The position numbers and the translations under genes are program-made. A DNA stretch of 8,787 nucleotides from IMG/VR virus record IMGVR_UViG_2778261176_000001. One strand, given 5' to 3'. Under the pieces are notes generated by a model. The model was given only the letters and a program-made list of their open reading frames with translations. It searched no databases and was not told the DNA's origin. Origin of the DNA: a virus. Its lineage: Duplodnaviria; Heunggongvirae; Uroviricota; Caudoviricetes. Positions 1 to 8,417 of this stretch are shown here, one piece after another. The first letter of the stretch is position 1. Each line of letters opens with the position of its first letter.

Positions 1-68
1 TCTGAGGTGAGCATATCACCTCTGTTCAGGTGGCCAAATTCAGTGTGCCACTTCATTACGAGTTCCAT
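1..68 (-). CDS. Hypothetical phage protein, 5' end only (continues past window start)
   Basis: Minus-strand ATG at 66-68 preceded by AGGAG with 5-nt spacing; reads MELVMKWHTEFGHLNRGDMLTS... in frame to position 1 with no stop. Lies just downstream of the terminator-like hairpin at 78-102. Too short for the ORF track. Confidence 0.35.
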   Translation of the reverse strand, partial: MELVMKWHTEFGHLNRGDMLTS

Positions 69-2652: not shown

Positions 2653-2949
2653 TCACTCCTGTTCACTGGCCTCTTTGGCCATCTTCAAATACTGTTCAGG
2701 GCAATGCGCCATAACGCGCTGAAACAGTTCCAGCGCCAGATTGCGTTGCCCCTCATTAAATGCCATTGCCATAGCGTCCATCGGTGAGATAGCGGAAAAC
2801 ACACGGCCTTTCTCCAGCACCGACCAGACAACGCGACGCCCCTGTTCACTGCTCATGACAAAGCGAATGTCATCAATTTCACGCTGTGCCATGTCACGTT
2901 GCTTACGGGCGTTTTCTTCTTTCAGTTGATCGTCTTCGTAATCTGTCAT
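2653..2949 (-). CDS. Hypothetical small phage protein (98 aa) between portal and scaffold
   Basis: ATG start overlaps the portal stop (ATGA), suggesting translational coupling; stop lies within the SD region of the scaffold gene. Charged, helical-looking. Function unknown. Confidence 0.55.
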   Translation of the reverse strand: MTDYEDDQLKEENARKQRDMAQREIDDIRFVMSSEQGRRVVWSVLEKGRVFSAISPMDAMAMAFNEGQRNLALELFQRVMAHCPEQYLKMAKEASEQE

Positions 2950-4625
2950 TGTGATTGCCCACCCTGACCACTAACTGCATTAGCCATAGCTGACAAAACA
3001 CTCGGATCCGAAGTTTTAGCTTCGCTTAGCGTCTTGGCACCCTGTGCCGCCGCCATCCCCATCGCCATCATTTGTTGCTGCTGTTGTTGCTGTGCCCGTT
3101 GCTGGCGAGCCTGCTCAACCTGTTCCTGCGGAACAATGACGGTTGGAGACACTCCGGACATATCAGCGAATGCATCGATCGCCTGATCAACGTTGAGTTT
3201 GTCGAGAGCTTCTGGTTTCGCTTGCGCAAGTTGACCAATGAAGTTAACCGTGGACGCCAGACTGGACAGGCCGATAGACTTCTGCGCCTGAGCCATGACG
3301 GAAATGTATTCGACCTTCAGGGGCATACCTTCCATCGCGTCAGGCGGTGGCGGCAGCATGTTTTTACGCACCATCATCGAGAAAGCGCGGTCAATGAGAG
3401 GGTTAAGACATTCGTCGTTCAGACGCTCCAGAACCGGCCCCAACATCAGAAGTTTTTCTTCTTTCATTTCGATCACCGCTTCAACAGGCATCGAGCGGGT
3501 ATTGATGTTCTGCAACATCATGAACAGATCGACAAAGTAGGCGCTGTTAATGATTTGACGAGTGTCCTGAATGTCTGCTACCAGATCTGCTGTACTGGGG
3601 TTAACCAGATAAGCAGGCCTGAAACCATCCTGACCAGTAATCTGATCGATATACGTGATGTCGCCAGGAAGAAGGGAGGCGCGCTGATTCTTGAGGGAAG
3701 TCGGAGCAACCATCGGCGGATTGGTGGCTTTATCAATCAACTGCGACTTGCGCTTCTGGAGAAGCTGCAATGCCTTAACAGGTCCAAGCGCCAGCATACC
3801 CGGGCATGATGATCCATAAACATCTTCGCCATTAACTTCCCAGCGCGGAGCCATAATTGGAAACTCATCAAATCCGGACTCACGCAACAACTTGTCGTTA
3901 TCGCCACCAACCTCGTAATAAACCGATTTGAATGGCTTGTTCTTGCTATCCAGCTTCGATGTATCGCGGTCAATGTTCGGGTAAACCGAATGCATCACGT
4001 CAATCCACTTCTCGTAGGTGCCGCTTTCCCACATGCTTTTTACGGATTCGCTGACGTTATTTAGCCCGAACTCCTGAACAAGCTGACGAACAGTCATAGA
4101 GAACTTGCGAAAACAGGTGTCCACACTGCCACGAGGTGAGTTAGCCAGGTAGTAACTGCCTATCGGGAATGGCATTGTGCGAATGATGTCCTCGTCATCC
4201 TCCAGCACCGCCATTGCACCAGTGCTGTATGTGCCGAGGCTTCCGTATAACTGCGGAAGAGACTGGTAGAGATTCGACTTATTGAACATATCGTTCATGC
4301 GGTTCTGCACCGCCTCGAGCCACAACTTAACAGGACCATAATCCATCATTTCAGGATCTGGCGTAGCCAGGCGAAACCACGGACGCGCAGGGCTTGTGAT
4401 GCCTGACATCATGCCGCTGGCGAGAGTGCGCGCCGCCATAGTCCCGGTCGAATCAATAATGCGTGTATTGCGTCGATCGTTACGGTTGACCTCAGAAGTC
4501 AGAAAGCGGGAACCACGCGGGTTGATGTAATCACTCAACTCGCGCCAGTGCGGCTCGAACGACTGACGCTCGCTTTCAAGTTGTGCGAACTGTTTGTTCA
4601 ATCGCTCTTTAGTTGTTTCCGCCAT
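2946..4625 (-). CDS. Portal protein (T7 gp8-like head-to-tail connector family)
   Basis: 559-aa ORF with ATG start and GGAG SD. The N-terminal pattern and the Gln/Ala/Met-rich C-terminal tail (QQRAQQQQQQQMMAMGMAAAQGA...) resemble T7 gp8 as recalled from memory, not from an alignment. Confidence 0.85.
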   Translation of the reverse strand: MAETTKERLNKQFAQLESERQSFEPHWRELSDYINPRGSRFLTSEVNRNDRRNTRIIDSTGTMAARTLASGMMSGITSPARPWFRLATPDPEMMDYGPVKLWLEAVQNRMNDMFNKSNLYQSLPQLYGSLGTYSTGAMAVLEDDEDIIRTMPFPIGSYYLANSPRGSVDTCFRKFSMTVRQLVQEFGLNNVSESVKSMWESGTYEKWIDVMHSVYPNIDRDTSKLDSKNKPFKSVYYEVGGDNDKLLRESGFDEFPIMAPRWEVNGEDVYGSSCPGMLALGPVKALQLLQKRKSQLIDKATNPPMVAPTSLKNQRASLLPGDITYIDQITGQDGFRPAYLVNPSTADLVADIQDTRQIINSAYFVDLFMMLQNINTRSMPVEAVIEMKEEKLLMLGPVLERLNDECLNPLIDRAFSMMVRKNMLPPPPDAMEGMPLKVEYISVMAQAQKSIGLSSLASTVNFIGQLAQAKPEALDKLNVDQAIDAFADMSGVSPTVIVPQEQVEQARQQRAQQQQQQQMMAMGMAAAQGAKTLSEAKTSDPSVLSAMANAVSGQGGQSQ

Positions 4626-4639
4626 TTCAATGACTCCGG

Positions 4640-4846
4640 TTACTGACCAAGCAGCGTTTTACCGCTGGTATTAGCGGTTGATGTGTCGCCCTGAGAACCG
4701 GTAAGCAGCGTAGAACTACGACCAGCAGCAGCGCGACGGCGACGTGTTTCTTCGTCGCGGGCATCAACAACGGCGGCATCCTGCTCCTGTGGTGCTGCCT
4801 GAACTTCTGGTGTTGCAGGCACTGATGGTGAGCTACCCATGCACAT
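4640..4846 (-). CDS. Hypothetical small protein (68 aa), low-complexity Ala/Thr/Ser/Gln-rich with an Arg cluster
   Basis: ATG start preceded by CGGAGTCATTGAT, a near-identical copy of the portal's translation-initiation region (CGGAGTCATTGAA); TAA stop abuts the portal SD. GC-rich like the structural genes. Could be a head-completion protein; real but unproven. Confidence 0.4.
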   Translation of the reverse strand: MCMGSSPSVPATPEVQAAPQEQDAAVVDARDEETRRRRAAAGRSSTLLTGSQGDTSTANTSGKTLLGQ

Positions 4847-4869
4847 ATCAATGACTCCGTACGCAATTA

Positions 4870-4941
4870 AATTATTACCAATTTAACCACATATGATTTA
4901 TTTATCGTAGAAGGTTGACATTTAACGCGTGAATTATTACC
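4870..4941. repeat. 10-bp direct repeat AATTATTACC (4870-4879 and 4932-4941) flanking a TTGACA hexamer (4915-4920)
   Basis: Exact 10-mer twice within an AT-rich intergenic stretch; TTGACA matches the sigma70 -35 consensus but I found no convincing -10 at 15-19 bp spacing on the plus strand. Candidate promoter/operator region. Confidence 0.35.
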
Positions 4942-5273
4942 TTTCAGGTAACTAAAGAGCTCATTCTGGTTACTAACCTGACTGGCTTGTCGTTAAATTA
5001 AACAGGTGGAGTGAGCTTTTATTTTGAGCAGTACGGCGTATGGCACATGCGCCGATAGCGGTCTGGATACGTTTAAGGGGCACCCTCCCTTGCTCGGGCA
5101 AACGAACCAGGTAGCCAGAATGTGCAAGTCGAGCGGTTTTATTCCGCGCACGGGGATTCACCATCCCGGCGATTCGGTGTGACGCCTCGGAAGAGACGAG
5201 GGTACAACGATGAGAGCATTTATGGAGCCGCGACAAAGTGTGGCGCCTTAACAGGCTAAGTGCTCTCAGCGTT

Positions 5274-5350
5274 GTGGCATTAGCTCAGTCGGACAGAGCA
5301 ACCGCCTTCTAAGCGGTTGGTCGCAGGTTCGAATCCTGCATGCCACGCCA
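5274..5350 (+). tRNA. tRNA-Arg (anticodon UCU)
   Basis: Hand-folded cloverleaf: acceptor GTGGCAT/ATGCCAC, D-stem GCTC/GAGC, anticodon stem ACCGC/GCGGT with loop CTTCTAA (anticodon TCT), 5-nt variable loop, T-arm GCAGG-TTCGAAT-CCTGC, discriminator G, encoded CCA. All stems are Watson-Crick. Confidence 0.9.
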
Positions 5351-5393
5351 GAATCACGCCTAAGGACCGTGATGCCAGAAGTTCCAGGGGCTT

Positions 5394-5438
5394 GGCGGTG
5401 ATGGTTTCCCTTGAAGGACTATCACCGCCCTTTTTACA
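5394..5438 (+). terminator. Intrinsic terminator downstream of the tRNA
   Basis: GGCGGTGAT ... ATCACCGCC (9-bp stem, 18-nt loop with internal TCC/GGA pairing) followed by CTTTTTACA. Confidence 0.6.
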
Positions 5439-5513
5439 GCAGGACGCCATTGCGATGACTTCATGCTGTAAACCCGTACAGCCACGGAAGGCATAACTCA
5501 TTGCTTCCAGTTC

Positions 5514-5537
5514 GCCCGGTTCGCCGGGCATTTTTTT
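5514..5537 (+). terminator. Terminator/attenuator hairpin immediately upstream of the 140-aa ORF's SD
   Basis: GCCCGG-TTCG-CCGGGC (6-bp GC stem, UUCG tetraloop) followed by ATTTTTTT; the U-tract runs directly into the SD AAGGTGAG of the ORF starting at 5549. Confidence 0.5.
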
Positions 5538-5548
5538 AAGGTGAGATT

Positions 5549-5971
5549 ATGAAGACAATTGATATGTTGGCTAAGTATCTAAATGAATGGCCATTAAAAT
5601 ATTCTCGTATCGTTCAGGCTGAAGACTGCATTTTTTATGGCGTTTTTGCTGGTAATGAAATGCATTACGAAGTAATTCAGAGTGAGGGACTGACCGGGTT
5701 AACTCTTAGCGAAGACCATGGTACTAGCGTTACGTTCCATGACTGGATAACAGCACAACGTTCTGAAATGGAAAAAGGCGATGTGTTTGATATTTCTCGC
5801 TCTGTTTGCGCTAAAGCAAAAAGTGATAATGATTACATGAGCGAACACTTATACAACATGAAGCTACAGTGCCTTGCCGAGGTGCTTGGTAAAAAAGCTA
5901 TTGTCGATAAACAAGGCGCCATTAGCGAAGCAAAGGCAATAAATGCTGCATTTGATGAAATTATTTTCTAG
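5549..5971 (+). CDS. Orphan hypothetical protein (140 aa), AT-rich accessory gene on the opposite strand
   Basis: ATG start with AAGGTGAG SD; followed by its own terminator. Visibly lower GC than the flanking structural genes; no signal peptide or transmembrane segment by eye; no motif I recognise; no AGA/AGG codons. Confidence 0.7.
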   Translation: MKTIDMLAKYLNEWPLKYSRIVQAEDCIFYGVFAGNEMHYEVIQSEGLTGLTLSEDHGTSVTFHDWITAQRSEMEKGDVFDISRSVCAKAKSDNDYMSEHLYNMKLQCLAEVLGKKAIVDKQGAISEAKAINAAFDEIIF

Positions 5972-5975
5972 CTCT

Positions 5976-5989
5976 GTGACATGTCACAA
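5976..5989. repeat. Perfect palindrome TGTGACATGTCACA (core GTGACATGTCAC), copy 1
   Basis: 14-bp perfect palindrome 5 nt after the stop of the 140-aa ORF and just before its terminator; the 12-bp core recurs exactly at 8427-8438. Confidence 0.8.
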
Positions 5990-5991
5990 AC

Positions 5992-6020
5992 AGCCAGCCG
6001 ATGAGCTGGCTTTGTTTTAT
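5992..6020 (+). terminator. Intrinsic terminator of the 140-aa ORF (possibly bidirectional, shared with convergent terL)
   Basis: AGCCAGC-CGATGA-GCTGGCT (7-bp stem) followed by TTGTTTTAT on the plus strand; on the minus strand the same hairpin is followed by UGUUUGUG (weaker). A second hairpin ATCCTC-ATCA-GAGGAT lies at about 6021-6036. Confidence 0.6.
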
Positions 6021-6061
6021 CCTCATCAGAGGATATCAACGACATTATCCCCACCAGCGGA

Positions 6062-7537
6062 TTAATCATAGGGATCGTAATCTGTGATGGCCTTGCCTTG
6101 CTGGTTCTGCTGCCCGGGAATTCGCAGACGCTTCGACACAGGGAAAGCAAACGTCAGCAGTAGCGCATCGCCTTTACCCGGCGAGCGCCCAAGCCGCTCC
6201 TTGATATCTTCCTTCGGTTCGATAACGATTTTACCGTCCACGCGAACTTTGTACTCTGCCGCCGACAGGTCGTCCGCTGTTTCCTGGTCATCCAGCATGC
6301 CGCCCAGCCTCAGCCATGTCTTGCATGAGTTGAACATCTCCCCACGCTTGTTAAGCATCTGCGGGTCAGTAGACGCGCCACCGAACGGAACAAGTTGCCA
6401 TGTGCGCCCCCAACCGTCACCGATTGACTTCAGACCGGTACCGTAACCAAAGTCGATGAACACTGCGTCAGCCTGATACAGGTCTTCAAAGTCAGCGATA
6501 CGCTTCGCCATAATCAGATCGTCGGTAGTCTTGTTGCCAGTCCACAGCACCTTACTGTGTAGCCCCTGCCGCAGGTATATCACCGCGTCATCAACGCCTG
6601 AATATGCCGGGTCAACACCGATTATCACCGGAGCATGCGCCACCTGCGCAGCGGTTACCACCCGTTTCATTGCCTCATCAGTAAGACCGGTAGGGATAAA
6701 CTGCAATTCAGATGCATCAGGGAATATGCCGCGCACACGGATTTTAACGAAGTCGCTGTCTTCCCCGTAGTCATCAACCCATTTCTGCAACTGCTGTTTG
6801 TTAGTGCCTTCCACCGTCCGGCTGTCAATCTGCGCACACTTCCAGCGGTGTTTATATTTGCGGAAACATTCGCGGAAACGCCCGGTGTTACGTGTAGGGT
6901 TTCCGAACGCCACCCAGATAATCTCAGTGTCTTCGTCCGTAAGCGCACCCTCAGCAACTTCCCATACCAGATCCGCAATGTTCGACGCTTCGTCGAAAAC
7001 CACGATGATGCGTTTGCGCTCGTTGTGTAGTCCGGCGAATGCCTCAGTGTTGTGCTCAGACCAGGGGATTGCGTCAGCTCGCCACCGCTTGTCGTGCCCA
7101 GGATCATTGCTGTACATCGCGGTAGCGGTACAGGTAAACCAGTCTTTCGTGATAGCAAGGTTCGACCACTTGATAATTTCCGGCCAGGTCTTCGTTCGTA
7201 GCTGGTTGTCGGTGTTGGCGGTCACCACGACCTTACAATCCTCGCAAGTGGACATGCCCCAGTTGATCAGCATTGAGATGAATGCGGATTTACCAATACC
7301 GTGACCAGAAGCGCGTGCCAGCATAAGCGGCTGATAGCGCGTCTCTGGATTCTGCAGGTGATCACGTATCTCTCGGAACGCATCAGCCTGCCACTGACGT
7401 GGGCCGGTGGCATGTGCCAGTTCAGTCCCCTCTTCCCCCCACGGGAACGCATAGAGGGCATAGCCAAGCGGATCGTGAGTGAACCCTGCAATATCCTCGA
7501 TCAACTGCTCTTCAGGAGATAACGCTGTATCTGTCAC
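6062..7537 (-). CDS. terL: Terminase large subunit (ATPase + nuclease)
   Basis: 491-aa ORF; Walker A-like SGHGIGKS, Walker B-like IIVVFDEAS, C-terminal acidic nuclease-like motifs (IIGVDPAYSG, FIDFGYG); GTG start overlaps the terS stop (GTGA) with AGGA upstream. Confidence 0.85.
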   Translation of the reverse strand: MTDTALSPEEQLIEDIAGFTHDPLGYALYAFPWGEEGTELAHATGPRQWQADAFREIRDHLQNPETRYQPLMLARASGHGIGKSAFISMLINWGMSTCEDCKVVVTANTDNQLRTKTWPEIIKWSNLAITKDWFTCTATAMYSNDPGHDKRWRADAIPWSEHNTEAFAGLHNERKRIIVVFDEASNIADLVWEVAEGALTDEDTEIIWVAFGNPTRNTGRFRECFRKYKHRWKCAQIDSRTVEGTNKQQLQKWVDDYGEDSDFVKIRVRGIFPDASELQFIPTGLTDEAMKRVVTAAQVAHAPVIIGVDPAYSGVDDAVIYLRQGLHSKVLWTGNKTTDDLIMAKRIADFEDLYQADAVFIDFGYGTGLKSIGDGWGRTWQLVPFGGASTDPQMLNKRGEMFNSCKTWLRLGGMLDDQETADDLSAAEYKVRVDGKIVIEPKEDIKERLGRSPGKGDALLLTFAFPVSKRLRIPGQQNQQGKAITDYDPYD

Positions 7538-8130
7538 TGATTACAATCCTGACGTTCTTTGAGTCGCTTCCTGGCTGCTGCTATGCGATCAGCAATTGTC
7601 ACATTCACATTAACATCCAGGCGTTCTTTGAATGCATTGACATCGACGTGCTTACCAATCAGCTCAAGGTTCTTCACCTTGTCAGGCCATTTAATTTTTT
7701 TGAGGATTGTCTCTATCGAATCCTCGTTCATGTTCATGATGGTCGATGACAGATCAAAGCCGCTAAGCGTAGTGCGCCAGATTTTCGGCCACTCGCGGAT
7801 TGGCTTAAGGCTCCCATCGTCGTTGAGGATATCAATCACGTCCATCTGGTCGATCTCCACCAGGCGCATGAGAACGTAATCAGCACTGACACGCATTCGT
7901 TTGTTGCGCTCTTCCATCAGCTCGGCAATCCGTTTTTGAATGCGTTCATCGCGCATCATGACACTGGCTTTAACTGCCGCTGTATTTGGGGAGAATCCTG
8001 CGTTAATCGCTGCCTGAGTCTGGTTTTCAGGCGTTTTGATGTATGACTGGCAATAAGCCTCCTGCATTGCTGTGAGCGGCTTAAATTGCGTTGATTTGCG
8101 TTTATAGGTTTTAGGTTCAGCAGGCATCAT
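7534..8130 (-). CDS. terS: Terminase small subunit
   Basis: Directly upstream of and overlapping terL. The N-terminal region (KPLTAMQEAYCQSYIKTPENQTQAAINAGFSPNTAAVKAS) has the LTxxQxxFxxxY pattern of small terminase subunits as recalled from memory. The ORF-track start at 8208 is a TTG whose first 26 codons would translate a terminator hairpin and tandem repeats; I place the start at the ATG pair 8125-8130 (GGTGG upstream). The ATG at 8137-8139 is also possible. Confidence 0.7.
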   Translation of the reverse strand: MMPAEPKTYKRKSTQFKPLTAMQEAYCQSYIKTPENQTQAAINAGFSPNTAAVKASVMMRDERIQKRIAELMEERNKRMRVSADYVLMRLVEIDQMDVIDILNDDGSLKPIREWPKIWRTTLSGFDLSSTIMNMNEDSIETILKKIKWPDKVKNLELIGKHVDVNAFKERLDVNVNVTIADRIAAARKRLKERQDCNQ

Positions 8131-8138
8131 AACCACCA

Positions 8139-8169
8139 TGGTAATAGTTACCGTTGTGGTAATAGTACC
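8139..8169. repeat. Tandem near-palindromic repeats GGTAATAGTTACC / GGTAATAGTACC (10-bp exact direct repeat TGGTAATAGT, 18 bp apart)
   Basis: Read directly: 8139-8152 TGGTAATAGTTACC, spacer GTTG, 8157-8169 TGGTAATAGTACC; each unit has inverted arms GGTA(A)/(T)TACC. Located between a minus-strand terminator and the terS start. Candidate operator or TerS-binding (cosB/pac-like) sites. Confidence 0.55.
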
Positions 8170-8170
8170 A

Positions 8171-8199
8171 TGCAAAATAAAGCCGCCATAGTTGGCGGC
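8171..8199 (-). terminator. Intrinsic terminator between the 70-aa gene and terS
   Basis: Minus-strand RNA: GCCGCCA-ACUA-UGGCGGC (7-bp GC-rich stem) followed by UUUAUUUUG. Confidence 0.6.
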
Positions 8200-8204
8200 A
8201 GTAT

Positions 8205-8417
8205 TCAAAGTCCATCAAATTCATCGTAAAAACTCTCGTCAAGATACCCTTCCCATTTACCGCGAATGAAAATTACATCCTCGCCGCAAGGGTGCTGACT
8301 GTCGATAACTATATCCCTCCTGGCGCAACCATACTTATGCATGAGAAATTTAACCTCTTTCGGAAAATTTGCTGAGTTATCTCTCATATCTTCAAGGTCG
8401 TAGCGTATTTTTGGCAT
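8205..8417 (-). CDS. Hypothetical small protein (about 70 aa), AT-rich
   Basis: ORF-track ORF 8205..8438 starts at a GTG formed by the palindrome itself; the ATG at 8415-8417 is preceded by GAAGGTG and is the more likely start (MPKIRYDLEDM...). AT-rich relative to neighbours; function unknown. Confidence 0.5.
   Translation of the reverse strand: MPKIRYDLEDMRDNSANFPKEVKFLMHKYGCARRDIVIDSQHPCGEDVIFIRGKWEGYLDESFYDEFDGL

What the first reader, a model, noticed from the sequence alone, without database searches (positions are those of the whole stretch)
4867..6061. Opposite-strand AT-rich insertion (tRNA-Arg, three terminators, orphan 140-aa ORF) splitting the terL-portal junction
The packaging/head genes are a tight minus-strand operon, yet about 1.2 kb between terL and the portal region is transcribed the other way, is visibly more AT-rich than its neighbours and is insulated by its own terminators. 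That is the signature of a horizontally acquired accessory cassette, the kind of place where prophage-encoded defence, anti-defence or exclusion functions are found. Its content is not recognisable to me, so it is the best candidate in the window for something undescribed.
Basis: partly seen in the sequence, partly recalled or inferred. Interest (0 to 1): 0.8.

Follow-up and report, generated by a model that had tools for sequence, protein, structure and literature searches.

The report
Phage early unit with unannotated RNA
The gap between the terminase and portal genes is a conserved, probably repressor-controlled plus-strand transcription unit of epsilon15/phiV10-like phages, in which an unannotated structured RNA (also found in P1 and Stx/cdt lambdoid phages) and a tRNA-Arg precede two terminators and a slot where unrelated accessory genes are swapped.

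Summary
The listed features are real: tRNA-Arg(UCU) at 5274-5350, three plus-strand terminator hairpins and a 140-aa ORF at 5549-5971. The reading as one AT-rich insertion is only partly right.

The window is a Uetakevirus (epsilon15/phiV10-like) packaging and head module. Every relative has this plus-strand gap. The left part, 4867-5548, is conserved across E. coli, Salmonella and Klebsiella phages and is GC-rich from 5021. Only the ORF slot is swapped, among at least 12 unrelated families, including Tad2-like anti-Thoeris proteins.

- **Promoter:** TTGACA-17-TACCTT, overlapped by a perfect match to the genus repressor operator (ATTACC-N5-GGTAAT). The unit is therefore probably early and shut off in lysogens.
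- **RNA:** It has no Rfam match and no annotation in the records I examined. I recovered about 160 instances; 84 distinct sequences show 95.8% pairing, and 12 of 24 pairs have compensatory changes. It lies in leaders of cI-controlled early operons in lambdoids and between trnI and ban in P1.
- **ORF140:** a real gene (dN/dS 0.185) of a small, uncharacterised enterobacterial phage family.

The functions of the RNA and of ORF140 are inferred, not shown.

The parts
4867..4914 (-). Nearly invariant non-coding block upstream of the gp3-portal genes; presumed leader or promoter region of the minus-strand head operon
   Evidence: About 45 nt (TTAAATTATTACCAATTTAACCACATATGATTTATTT) are identical in E. 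coli, Salmonella and Klebsiella relatives, while the flanking coding DNA is about 80% identical. Function not tested.
4915..4943 (+). Sigma-70-type promoter of the plus-strand unit: -35 TTGACA (4915-4920), 17-nt spacer, -10 TACCTT (4938-4943)
   Evidence: The -35, the spacing and TAnnnT are conserved while the spacer sequence varies. A TTGACA(>=5/6)-16..18-TAnnnT pattern lies upstream of the RNA in 36/36 Uetakevirus-type loci and in 0/36 control windows. The stricter scan did not report it. No transcript data.
4937..4951 (.). Repressor operator palindrome TTACCTTTCAGGTAA, overlapping the -10 element
   Evidence: By position and sequence it corresponds to the epsilon15 site annotated 'repressor, lysogeny'. 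It matches the ATTACC-N5-GGTAAT core shared by the seven annotated epsilon15 sites, three of them next to the repressor gene. A second perfect site lies at 8148-8162, upstream of terS.
4954..5020 (+). 5' domain of the leader RNA, closed by helix AAAGAGCTCA (4954-4963) / TGAGCTTTT (5012-5020)
   Evidence: The Klebsiella relatives have GAAAGCGCAC / GTGCGCTTCC at the same place, which is a compensated helix. Read by eye, not scored.
5031..5204 (+). Core of an unannotated pseudoknotted RNA: hairpin P1, long helix P2 closing a variable domain, invariant GGUAGCC(A/G)GAAUGUGCAAG, variable hairpin P3, hairpin P4 whose loop CACC pairs with the downstream GGUG, and a boxB-like hairpin P6 with loop GAAGAGA
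   Evidence: Covariance model hit of 138.7 bits. On 84 distinct sequences, 95.8% of cells pair against at most 42% in slid controls, 12 of 24 pairs have changes on both sides, and covariation is 0.316 against 0.146 with 0 of 500 shuffles as high. The pseudoknot co-varies (CACC/GGUG to AACC/GGUU in 3 sequences). Near-invariant U-G pairs place the RNA on the plus strand. No Rfam match at E<=10.
5205..5273 (+). 3' domain of the leader: helix AACGATGAGAGCA (5206-5218) / TGCTCTCAGCGTT (5261-5273) around a variable insert, ending at the first base of the tRNA
   Evidence: The helix is kept with compensatory and G-U changes in relatives. The motif GTGC(T/G)CT(C/T)...GTTGTGG is present in 27/30 unique Uetakevirus-type and 44/63 other instances, and absent from the P1 type.
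5274..5350 (+). tRNA-Arg (anticodon UCU, reads AGA), with encoded CCA
   Evidence: ARAGORN and Rfam at 73.3 bits. It follows the RNA in 31 of 137 instances. phiV10 uses AGA at 7.1 per 1000 codons, and at 14 per 1000 in its early-right genes.
5394..5437 (+). Terminator T1: 14-bp stem followed by CTTTTTAC
   Evidence: The stem is conserved, with changes on both strands, in SPN1S and a Klebsiella phage.
5455..5496 (+). Short upstream ORF MTSCCKPVQPRKA between T1 and T2 (possible leader peptide), with AGGA 10 nt upstream
   Evidence: Read from the sequence. The start and first codons are conserved. In SPN1S, Klebsiella and Tyrion relatives the frame runs through T2 into the cargo start; gene callers there produced MTSCCKP... 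extensions. Translation not shown.
5514..5537 (+). Terminator T2: GCCCGGTTCGCCGGGC followed by T7, 11 nt before the ORF140 start codon
   Evidence: Hairpin and T-run are conserved in all aligned relatives, with a compensated stem in SPN1S. It is annotated as a rho-independent terminator at the same place in epsilon15.
5549..5971 (+). Cargo gene ORF140 (phrog_4846, function unknown): an N-terminal alpha/beta domain and a C-terminal helical hairpin
   Evidence: dN/dS 0.185. Only 32 representative clusters among 1.8 billion proteins. No Pfam, NCBIfam, PADLOC or PDB sequence match. No informative fold match.
5992..6021 (+). Terminator T3 behind the cargo gene, facing the 3' end of terL
   Evidence: A terminator is annotated at the equivalent place in phiV10.

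Best explanation
The 4867-6061 gap is a conserved plus-strand transcription unit of Uetakeviruses, set between two separately controlled minus-strand units (terS-terL and gp3-portal-head). A sigma-70 promoter (TTGACA-17-TACCTT) is overlapped by the operator of the phage repressor. The unit should therefore be silent in the lysogen and fire on infection or induction; this step is inferred.

The transcript begins with about 320 nt of tightly structured non-coding RNA: a 5' domain, a pseudoknotted core at 5031-5204, and a 3' helix. It runs directly into tRNA-Arg(UCU). RNase P cleavage at the tRNA 5' end would separate the two (inferred). Most transcripts should stop at terminators T1 and T2. Those that read through express whatever accessory gene sits in the cargo slot, here ORF140, and end at T3.

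My preferred mechanism for the RNA is a cis-acting leader. It would keep the long untranslated early transcript elongating, giving protection from premature termination and read-through of T1 and T2 in the manner of nut, put or rrn leaders. I put this at roughly 0.3 on its own; it is inferred, not shown. I read ORF140 as an early accessory protein for host takeover or counter-defence, by analogy with the Tad2-like genes found in the same slot, also at roughly 0.3.
For: **The unit is conserved**
- The same gap with plus-strand content is present in phiV10, PAS61, epsilon15, SPN1S, Tyrion, TL-2011b and Klebsiella and Enterobacter prophages.
- Promoter, RNA, tRNA, T1 and T2 align across E. coli, Salmonella and Klebsiella phages.

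**Repressor control**
- The palindrome at 4937-4951 fits ATTACC-N5-GGTAAT exactly. By position and sequence it corresponds to the epsilon15 site annotated as repressor-binding.
- It covers the -10 element.

**Promoter**
- A promoter-like pattern lies upstream of the RNA in 36/36 Uetakevirus-type loci and 40/84 other loci, and in 0 control windows.

**The RNA is real and on the plus strand**
- See: 95.8% of cells pair, 12 of 24 pairs have compensatory changes, near-invariant U-G pairs fix the strand, and the pseudoknot co-varies.

**The RNA sits in early operons elsewhere**
- In 63 or more loci a cI-type Peptidase_S24 repressor gene lies directly upstream on the same strand, with CII divergent.
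- In P1 it lies inside the C1-controlled ban operon.

**Read-through is needed for the cargo**
- T2 ends 11 nt before the ORF140 start codon, and no promoter-like site lies between the tRNA and the ORF.
- Plus-strand terminators follow the RNA in 38 of 38 Uetakevirus-type loci.
- No N-like protein was found among the first downstream genes in lambdoids.
- P6 resembles boxB: a co-varying 5-bp stem with a conserved GAAGAG loop.

**Cargo**
- At least 12 unrelated families occupy the slot, including Tad2-like in 4 Uetakevirus-type loci. Tad2-like is also the first gene after the RNA in 5 lambdoid loci.
- ORF140 is under purifying selection.
Against: - No expression data were available. The promoter, the repression, the processing and the read-through are all inferences.
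- The -10 element is weak (TACCTT), and the stricter scan did not report this promoter.
- The operator could equally, or only, control the divergent gp3-portal promoter, which is the strand on which epsilon15 annotates the site.
- Against a cis antitermination role:
  - Only one copy exists per genome, always in one operon, whereas HK022 (from my own knowledge of that phage) carries put sites in both early operons.
  - Intrinsic terminators downstream are common only in the Uetakevirus context (1/12 P1-type loci, 18% of others).
  - Some lambdoids have a true boxA downstream of the core, so the core may do something else.
  - epsilon15 has lost most of the core, the tRNA and half of T1, yet keeps an intact cargo gene behind T2.
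  - Strict boxA is absent here.
- Against a counter-defence role for ORF140: it has no similarity to any known anti-defence or defence family. Guilt by position is weak evidence.
Confidence: 0.55

Rival explanations
1. The structured RNA is a stable, trans-acting non-coding RNA. It would be released from the early transcript by RNase P at the tRNA junction and would bind a conserved host or phage partner, for example a nuclease, an RNA chaperone, RNA polymerase or an immune sensor. In this view the cargo gene is expressed simply by leaky termination.
For: - Long invariant stretches outside the modelled helices (GGUAGCCGGAAUGUGCAAG, UCACCA, GGCGAUNCGGUGUGAC) persist across phages that share little else.
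- The RNA abuts a tRNA in 49 of 137 instances. Its 3' helix ends exactly at the tRNA 5' end, so a discrete processed species is plausible.
- There is one copy per genome.
- epsilon15 keeps its cargo gene without the RNA.
- Downstream terminators are not a general feature of the family.
Against: - No partner is identified, and no protein co-occurs with it in all three phage types within +/-3 kb.
- It is always co-oriented with, and usually within about 60-120 nt of, an early promoter. A cis element needs this; a trans RNA does not.
Confidence: 0.3
2. The whole 1.2 kb is a recently acquired AT-rich moron cassette with its own promoter and terminators, expressed from the prophage, whose ORF gives defence or superinfection exclusion.
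For: - ORF140 is 39% GC, against 51% for the window.
- The ORF position holds different genes in different relatives.
- A terminator follows the ORF.
- Some cargo, such as that of TL-2011b, comes with about 100 nt of its own upstream DNA.
Against: - The left 680 bp is conserved at this site across most of the genus and is GC-rich from 5021.
- No promoter-like site lies between T2 and the ORF.
- The only promoter found is covered by the repressor operator.
- There is no PADLOC match.
- The cargo of known function in this slot is anti-defence (Tad2-like), not defence.
Confidence: 0.12
3. The RNA core is a riboswitch-like sensor. A pseudoknotted aptamer would bind a small molecule reporting host state or an immune signal, and would set how much of the early accessory operon is made.
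For: - The architecture is typical of aptamers: invariant junction nucleotides, a pseudoknot, and peripheral hairpins of variable length and sequence.
- The conserved core is followed by alternative 3' modules.
- Signal-sponge genes (Tad2-like) lie directly downstream in several phages.
Against: - In this window a tRNA separates the core from the terminators, so there is no obvious overlap between an aptamer and an expression platform.
- In P1 the core is followed directly by the ban ribosome-binding site, with no terminator.
- No ligand is suggested by the neighbouring genes.
Confidence: 0.08
4. The conserved block works as DNA, for example as a single-strand initiation or packaging signal, and is not a functional RNA.
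For: - In P1 it lies next to the helicase gene ban.
- Folded single-stranded DNA signals of similar size exist in plasmids and phages (from my own knowledge).
Against: - Near-invariant U-G pairs (columns 9/19 and 32/90) and frequent G-U pairs would be A-C mismatches on the other strand.
- A co-oriented promoter lies just upstream.
- Its genome positions differ completely among the three phage types, which does not fit an origin or packaging site.
Confidence: 0.04

Closest known systems
put RNAs of phage HK022 (cis-acting antiterminator RNAs in the PL and PR leaders of an N-less lambdoid phage)
   Same: Both are structured RNAs in the leader of a repressor-controlled early operon. The lambdoid phages carrying this RNA show no N-like gene among the first downstream genes. 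Here the RNA is followed by terminators that must be passed to reach a gene.
   Different: There is no sequence or model match in the HK022 genome. This RNA is about 170-320 nt with a pseudoknot, against about 70 nt and two hairpins for put (from my own knowledge). It occurs once per genome rather than twice. It also occurs in P1 and in podoviruses. Antitermination is untested.
nut sites of lambda and P22 (boxA plus boxB) and rrn leader antitermination signals (boxB-boxA-boxC)
   Same: Hairpin P6 has a 5-bp co-varying stem and a conserved loop starting GAAGA, like lambda nutL boxB. The 3' domain carries UGCUCU(C/U), resembling the start of boxA, followed by GUUGUGG. Like rrn leaders, it precedes untranslated RNA genes.
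   Different: The loop has 7 nt rather than 5. Strict boxA is absent in 0/30 Uetakevirus-type instances, and the boxA-like bases are paired in a helix. A few lambdoids have a true boxA in addition to the core. No N-like protein was found.
Phage morons and variable accessory-gene slots, including anti-defence genes such as Tad2
   Same: The cargo position holds unrelated small genes in otherwise collinear genomes. It has low GC and a terminator behind it. Tad2-like (PF11195) genes occupy the same slot in relatives.
   Different: The cargo has no promoter of its own. It sits behind two terminators in a conserved RNA and tRNA unit under a repressor operator. ORF140 itself matches no known anti-defence or defence family.
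Phage-encoded tRNA genes (for example the tRNA-Arg genes of Stx phages and the P1 tRNAs)
   Same: It is a complete tRNA-Arg(UCU) with encoded CCA. The phage uses AGA several-fold more often than E. coli does on average (the host figure is from my own knowledge).
   Different: It is fused at its 5' end to a large structured RNA, and this arrangement recurs in 31 instances.

Membership tests
tRNA (Rfam RF00005), arginine isoacceptor UCU | Cloverleaf that scores above the family threshold, with a defined anticodon | tested here: met
   ARAGORN gives tRNA-Arg (tct) at 5274-5350. Rfam gives 73.3 bits against a gathering score of 29.
Any curated RNA family (Rfam 15), for the structured RNA at 5031-5204 | Covariance-model match at or near the gathering score | tested here: not met
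   Nothing overlaps 4950-5273 at E<=1 over the whole window, or at E<=10 over 621 nt. The same holds for the cdtI copy. PGAP annotates nothing there in E. coli genomes.
HK022 put antiterminator RNA | Homology to putL or putR | tested here: not met
   The HK022 genome has no match to the core motif with up to 3 mismatches, and no hit to model R1 at E<=1.
HK022 put antiterminator RNA | Position in the leader of a repressor-controlled early operon | tested here: met
   A promoter and operator lie about 85-115 nt upstream here. The RNA lies directly after the cI terminator and a PL-like promoter in lambdoids.
HK022 put antiterminator RNA | Makes RNA polymerase read through terminators in cis | not testable with these tools
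   This needs in vitro transcription or reporter assays. Context gives only indirect support (terminators in 38/38 Uetakevirus-type loci, few elsewhere).
nut site (boxA plus boxB) | BoxA consensus ([CT]GCTCTT[TA]A) next to a boxB hairpin with a GNRA-like pentaloop | tested here: not met
   Strict boxA is present in 0/30 Uetakevirus-type and 1/63 other unique instances. The P6 loop has 7 nt (GAAGAGA), not 5.
Moron (independently expressed accessory cassette) | Present between genes that are adjacent in related phages | tested here: not met
   No relative has terL next to gp3 or portal; all have the gap. Only the ORF is exchanged.
Moron (independently expressed accessory cassette) | Own promoter directly upstream of the gene | tested here: not met
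   No promoter-like site lies between 5351 and 5548. Terminator T2 ends 11 nt before the start codon.
Moron (independently expressed accessory cassette) | Own terminator downstream, and composition deviating from the host phage | tested here: met
   T3 lies at 5992-6011. ORF140 has 39.2% GC and GC3 0.35, against 0.41-0.62 in the neighbouring genes.
Tad2-like anti-Thoeris sponge (PF11195) | Profile match of ORF140 to the Tad2-like domain | tested here: not met
   ORF140 has no Pfam match. Tad2-like proteins are other occupants of the slot.
Known anti-phage defence proteins (PADLOC-DB) | Profile match of ORF140 | tested here: not met
   No family at E<=1.
Virion structural protein | Similarity of ORF140 to a known virion component, or detection in particles | tested here: inconclusive
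   phrog_4846 has unknown function. There is no Pfam, NCBIfam or PDB sequence match. Fold searches gave only generic helical hairpins and unnamed phage proteins. Its absence from most relatives argues against a core structural role. No proteomics were available.

The most novel reading that the evidence does not exclude
The pseudoknotted RNA would be a new class of temperate-phage regulatory RNA, shared by P1, Stx/cdt-type lambdoid phages and epsilon15-like podoviruses. It would either reprogramme the elongating polymerase by a mechanism unrelated to nut and put, or act as a sensor or decoy (of a small molecule, immune signal or host protein) that gates the first wave of accessory and anti-defence genes after the repressor is lost.
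Probability: 0.3. Interest if true: 0.85.

Novelty: new variant of a known kind. Interest (0 to 1): 0.68.

Why it matters
P1, Stx-converting and cdt-converting phages and the O157 typing phages are heavily studied. Even so, a conserved 170-nt pseudoknotted RNA at the head of their repressor-controlled early operons carries no annotation in the GenBank and RefSeq records I examined, has no Rfam family, and did not turn up in the literature I could search.

If it acts on transcription, it would be a third solution to early antitermination in temperate phages, after N/nut and put. If it acts in trans or senses a ligand, it would be a new layer in the switch from lysogeny to lytic growth.

There are also practical consequences. 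The conserved promoter, RNA, tRNA and twin-terminator block marks a slot where accessory genes are exchanged. Known anti-Thoeris (Tad2-like) genes sit there, so its uncharacterised occupants, such as the ORF140 and PF13876 families, become a short and testable list of candidate counter-defence genes. The analysis also flags an annotated ORF that is probably spurious (PhiV10p04) and lies over the tRNA.

Tried and rejected
- **Rfam:** searched the whole window and two small slices. Only the tRNA matched.
- **HK022 put RNA:** I fetched the HK022 genome and searched it with the motif and with the model. Nothing matched.
- **ORF140 function:**
  - Pfam, PHROGs, NCBIfam, PADLOC and PDB sequence searches gave no named family.
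  - The AlphaFold model has mean pLDDT 81.
  - Foldseek against BFVD gave only unnamed phage proteins. The afdb50 library was unavailable.
  - A profile search of 1.8 billion representative proteins found only 32 clusters, all of the same small family or its C-terminal module.
- **Homology of ORF140 to PhiV10p03:** rejected.
- **Literature searches:** core sequences, put/HK022, processive antitermination with prophage, AgvB and anti-sRNAs, and P1 ban RNA all found nothing on this RNA. One possibly relevant 2026 preprint could not be read.
- **RNAalifold's alternative long-range pairing** of GCACAU with AUGUGC: I kept it only as a possible tertiary contact. Both sides are invariant, whereas the local hairpin P1 co-varies.
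- **Minus-strand ORFs over the RNA and tRNA** (4973-5236 and 5280-5531): I judge these not to be genes. They lie over the co-varying RNA and the tRNA, whose conservation pattern (compensated helices, variable-length hairpins) is not that of coding sequence.
- **An N-like antiterminator** directly downstream of the RNA in lambdoids: none found.
- **General association with downstream intrinsic terminators:** not found outside the Uetakevirus context.
Full report
**1. What the window is.** The window carries a minus-strand packaging and head module:
- small terminase, 7534-8208 (PF03592)
- large terminase, 6062-7537
- a 68-aa gp3-like gene, 4640-4846
- portal, 2946-4625 (PF12236)
- Bbp19-like gene, scaffold, GP7 major capsid protein and others

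The DNA is 97.9% identical over 4600-6300 to Escherichia phage HEMP4 and 93% identical to vB_EcoP_PAS61. The same stretch matches phiV10, O157 typing phages 9 and 10, TL-2011b and others over only about 75% of its length. These are Uetakeviruses, the epsilon15/phiV10 group of temperate podoviruses.

**2. Checking the observation.** The listed features exist.
- tRNA-Arg (anticodon TCT), plus strand, 5274-5350.
- Plus-strand terminator-like hairpins at 5394-5429, 5514-5529 and 5992-6011.
- A 140-aa plus-strand ORF at 5549-5971.

The whole-window count of terminator-like sites is at chance level (10 against 8.7 +/- 2.4). These three are nevertheless among the best-formed sites. The first two are conserved in relatives with changes on both stem strands.

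The composition claim holds only in part. The ORF is 39.2% GC and 4867-5020 is 33.1%. The stretch 5021-5548 is 52-58% GC, above the window mean of 50.6%.

ORF140 is a real gene. It has a ribosome-binding site, about 80 homologous clusters, and dN/dS 0.185 against its PAS61 orthologue.

**3. The gap is ancestral; only the ORF is cargo.** Every relative inspected has a plus-strand gap between terL and gp3.

An alignment of the non-coding part from the window, phiV10, PAS61, TL-2011b, Salmonella phage SPN1S and a Klebsiella phage shows long invariant stretches. They run from just upstream of gp3 through the tRNA and both terminators to the ribosome-binding site of whatever ORF follows.

The ORF itself differs among relatives:

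| Phage | Cargo |
|---|---|
| phiV10, epsilon15 | 121-123-aa PF13876 (gp49_66) protein, not homologous to ORF140 |
| Klebsiella phage ST512-KPC3phi13.3 | a DUF2829 protein |
| Tyrion | three small genes |
| SPN1S, TL-2011b | other genes |
| Enterobacter and Klebsiella prophages | an ORF140 homologue followed by a PF13876 gene |

Across 38 Uetakevirus-type loci I counted at least 12 unrelated families in this slot. They include Tad2-like (PF11195) proteins, which belong to a known anti-Thoeris family.

In complete E. coli genomes, 907 of 5426 match some part of the region, but only 114 carry the version with ORF140.

**4. Promoter and operator.** The sequence TTGACA (4915-4920), a 17-nt spacer and TACCTT (4938-4943) form a promoter-like site. 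Its -35, its spacing and the T-A...T of the -10 are conserved, while the spacer sequence changes. The pattern is present upstream of the RNA in 36 of 36 Uetakevirus-type loci and in none of 36 control windows.

The -10 lies inside the palindrome TTACCTTTCAGGTAA (4937-4951). By position and sequence this corresponds to the epsilon15 site annotated as repressor-binding. It fits the ATTACC-N5-GGTAAT core of the seven annotated epsilon15 sites, three of which lie beside the repressor gene.

A second perfect site (8148-8162) and a one-mismatch site (8130) lie upstream of terS. So terS-terL and gp3-portal appear to be separate repressor-controlled units rather than one tight operon. The plus-strand unit is most likely shut off in the lysogen. 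This is an inference; no transcript data were available.

**5. The structured RNA.** Between the promoter and the tRNA lie about 320 nt with no credible ORF. BLAST with 5015-5273 found the same element, unannotated, in 92 phage records. These include P1, P7, D6, SJ46 and RCS47; phage cdtI; Stx2c and Stx2a phages; mEp390; Klebsiella and Enterobacter phages; and a phage isolated on Stenotrophomonas.

An exact 19-mer from it (GGTAGCCRGAATGTGCAAG) occurs in at least 120 IMG/VR contigs. It also occurs in 24 species-representative genomes, all Enterobacterales apart from two metagenome bins.

From 39 clusters at 88% identity I aligned 27 diverse cores and tested a structure derived by inspection:
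- hairpin P1
- helix P2, which closes a domain of variable length
- the invariant stretch GGUAGCCGGAAUGUGCAAG
- variable hairpin P3
- hairpin P4, whose loop CACC pairs with a downstream GGUG
- hairpin P6, with a conserved GAAGAG(A/U) loop

| Alignment | Cells paired | Best slid control | Pairs changed on both sides | Covariation score (shuffles) |
|---|---|---|---|---|
| MAFFT, 27 sequences | 97.2% | 43% | 11 | 0.245 (0.105; 0 of 500 as high) |
| Model-based, 84 distinct sequences | 95.8% | 42% | 12 of 24 | 0.316 (0.146) |

The pseudoknot co-varies: CACC/GGUG becomes AACC/GGUU in three sequences. Near-invariant U-G pairs place the RNA on the plus strand.

The window copy scores 138.7 bits at 5031-5204. 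Flanking domains at 4954-5020 and 5205-5273 are closed by helices that are also compensated in relatives. The 3' helix ends at the first base of the tRNA.

No Rfam family matches, even at E<=10 in a 621-nt search. PGAP annotates nothing over it. My literature searches found no description of it. HK022 has no copy, so it is not put RNA.

**6. Where the RNA sits in other phages.**
- **Lambdoids:** in at least 63 loci a cI-type repressor gene (Peptidase_S24, with or without HTH) lies directly upstream on the same strand, with CII divergent. A terminator and then a TTGACA promoter with operator-like repeats precede the RNA. This is the leader of the early-left operon.
- **Downstream genes in lambdoids:** these vary (DUF2303/YfdQ, unknowns, and Tad2-like in five loci). 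None resembles N.
- **P1:** the RNA lies between trnI and ban, inside the C1-controlled ban operon.
- **tRNA adjacency:** of 137 instances, 31 are followed by tRNA-Arg(UCU), 18 are preceded by a CAU tRNA (P1 type), and 88 have no tRNA nearby.
- **Copy number:** one per genome in phiV10, cdtI and the others tested. One contig, L035, has two.
- **epsilon15:** a deletion removes most of the core, the tRNA and half of T1. It leaves a 42-bit remnant under what its authors annotated as an RNase III site.

**7. How the unit most likely works.**

Shown by comparison:
- a conserved unit made of promoter/operator, structured RNA, tRNA, two terminators, exchangeable ORF and a third terminator
- the RNA fold
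- purifying selection on ORF140

Inferred:
- The unit is repressed in lysogens and fires early.
- RNase P separates the leader from the tRNA.
- The tRNA serves the phage's AGA codons, which occur at 7.1 per 1000 in phiV10 and 14 per 1000 in its early-right genes. The E. coli average is about 2 per 1000 (from my own knowledge).
- The cargo is expressed only by transcripts that pass T1 and T2. T2 ends 11 nt before the start codon, and no promoter lies between the tRNA and the ORF.

For the RNA I favour a cis-acting leader that keeps this untranslated transcript elongating. The supporting points are its position, the terminators here, the boxB-like P6, and the lack of an N-like gene among the first downstream genes in the lambdoids that carry it.

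The case is weak for four reasons:
- There is one copy per genome.
- There are few downstream terminators outside this genus.
- Some lambdoids have a true boxA in addition to the core.
- epsilon15 keeps its cargo gene without the RNA.

A trans-acting processed RNA is about equally likely, and a riboswitch-like sensor is possible.

A short ORF (MTSCCKPVQPRKA, 5455-5496) lies between T1 and T2. In several relatives it runs through T2 into the cargo start, which suggests translation-coupled passage of T2. This is untested.

**8. ORF140.**
- **Distribution:** homologues are confined to Enterobacteriaceae phages and prophages and are all labelled hypothetical. A profile search of 1.8 billion representative proteins found only 32 clusters.
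- **Structure:** the AlphaFold model (mean pLDDT 81) has an N-terminal alpha/beta domain and a C-terminal helical hairpin.
- **Mosaic C-terminus:** the C-terminal module occurs in two sequence types. It is also joined to a different N-terminal domain in Tyrion gp53.
- **Fold searches:** uninformative.
- **Known families:** no Pfam, NCBIfam, PADLOC or PDB sequence match.

Its role as an early accessory or counter-defence protein rests only on its position and on its neighbours in the same slot.

**9. Verdict.** The cargo slot is an ordinary kind of feature, with an uncharacterised occupant. The unexpected content is the conserved leader RNA, which is widespread in well-studied temperate phages and carried no annotation in any record I examined.

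Noticed in passing
window 5280-5531 (minus) and 4973-5236 (minus): Two minus-strand ORFs lie over the tRNA and terminators and over the structured RNA. The first corresponds to PhiV10p04 and F365_gp24, annotated as hypothetical proteins (phrog_4647). Because they lie over the tRNA and the co-varying RNA, they are very probably not genes.
   Followed up: partly
window 5455-5496: A short ORF, MTSCCKPVQPRKA, with AGGA 10 nt upstream, lies between terminators T1 and T2. Its start is conserved. In SPN1S, Klebsiella and Tyrion relatives the frame continues through T2 (...GHFFKVKIM) into the cargo start, and gene callers there produced N-terminally extended cargo proteins. It may be a leader peptide that couples translation to passage of T2.
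   Followed up: partly
window 8130-8162 and 8182-8199: A perfect repressor operator (TTACCGTTGTGGTAA, 8148-8162) and a one-mismatch site (8130) lie upstream of terS, next to a minus-strand terminator hairpin (8199-8182). epsilon15 has the same layout: a terminator at the genome end and an operator at 12-27. The repressor therefore seems to act directly on the packaging operon.
   Followed up: partly
window 4867-4914: About 45 nt upstream of gp3 are identical in E. coli, Salmonella and Klebsiella relatives, far more conserved than the neighbouring coding DNA. The block contains a half-operator (ATTACC). It may be the late or head promoter, or a leader for an unknown regulator.
   Followed up: no
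L016 2999-3178 (P1, AF234173.1 about 70702-70881): Phage P1 carries a full copy of the RNA core (132 bits) in the 285-nt unannotated gap between trnI and ban, inside the C1-controlled ban operon. P7, D6, SJ46 and RCS47 have it too. The P1-type copies lack the 3' domain.
   Followed up: partly
L140 2634-2724 (epsilon15): epsilon15 has a deletion that joins the first part of the RNA to the 3' half of terminator T1, removing the core, the tRNA-Arg and half of T1. The remnant lies under a feature annotated as an RNase III processing site.
   Followed up: partly
L035 3997-4155 and 4804-4960: One IMG/VR contig has two copies of the RNA core in the same orientation about 650 nt apart. It was the only multi-copy case seen.
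   Followed up: no
L080, L010, L091, L113 and other loci downstream of the RNA: Tad2-like (PF11195) genes occur directly behind the RNA, both in the Uetakevirus slot (98-aa and 173-aa forms) and as the first early-left gene in five lambdoid loci (191-aa form). This points to a link between the RNA and early anti-defence cargo.
   Followed up: partly
window 5549-5971; L011 4229-4600 (Tyrion gp53): The last 50 or so residues of ORF140 (LYNMKLQCL...AINA(A/G)FD) form a separate module. It has two sequence types within the family. In Tyrion and in other proteins (P0096, P0099) it is attached to unrelated N-terminal domains.
   Followed up: partly
L150, L162 (genome contigs): Two metagenome-assembled bins labelled Oscillospiraceae and Bacillota carry the exact 19-mer of the RNA. 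Every other genome hit is from Enterobacterales, so these are probably mis-binned contigs.
   Followed up: no
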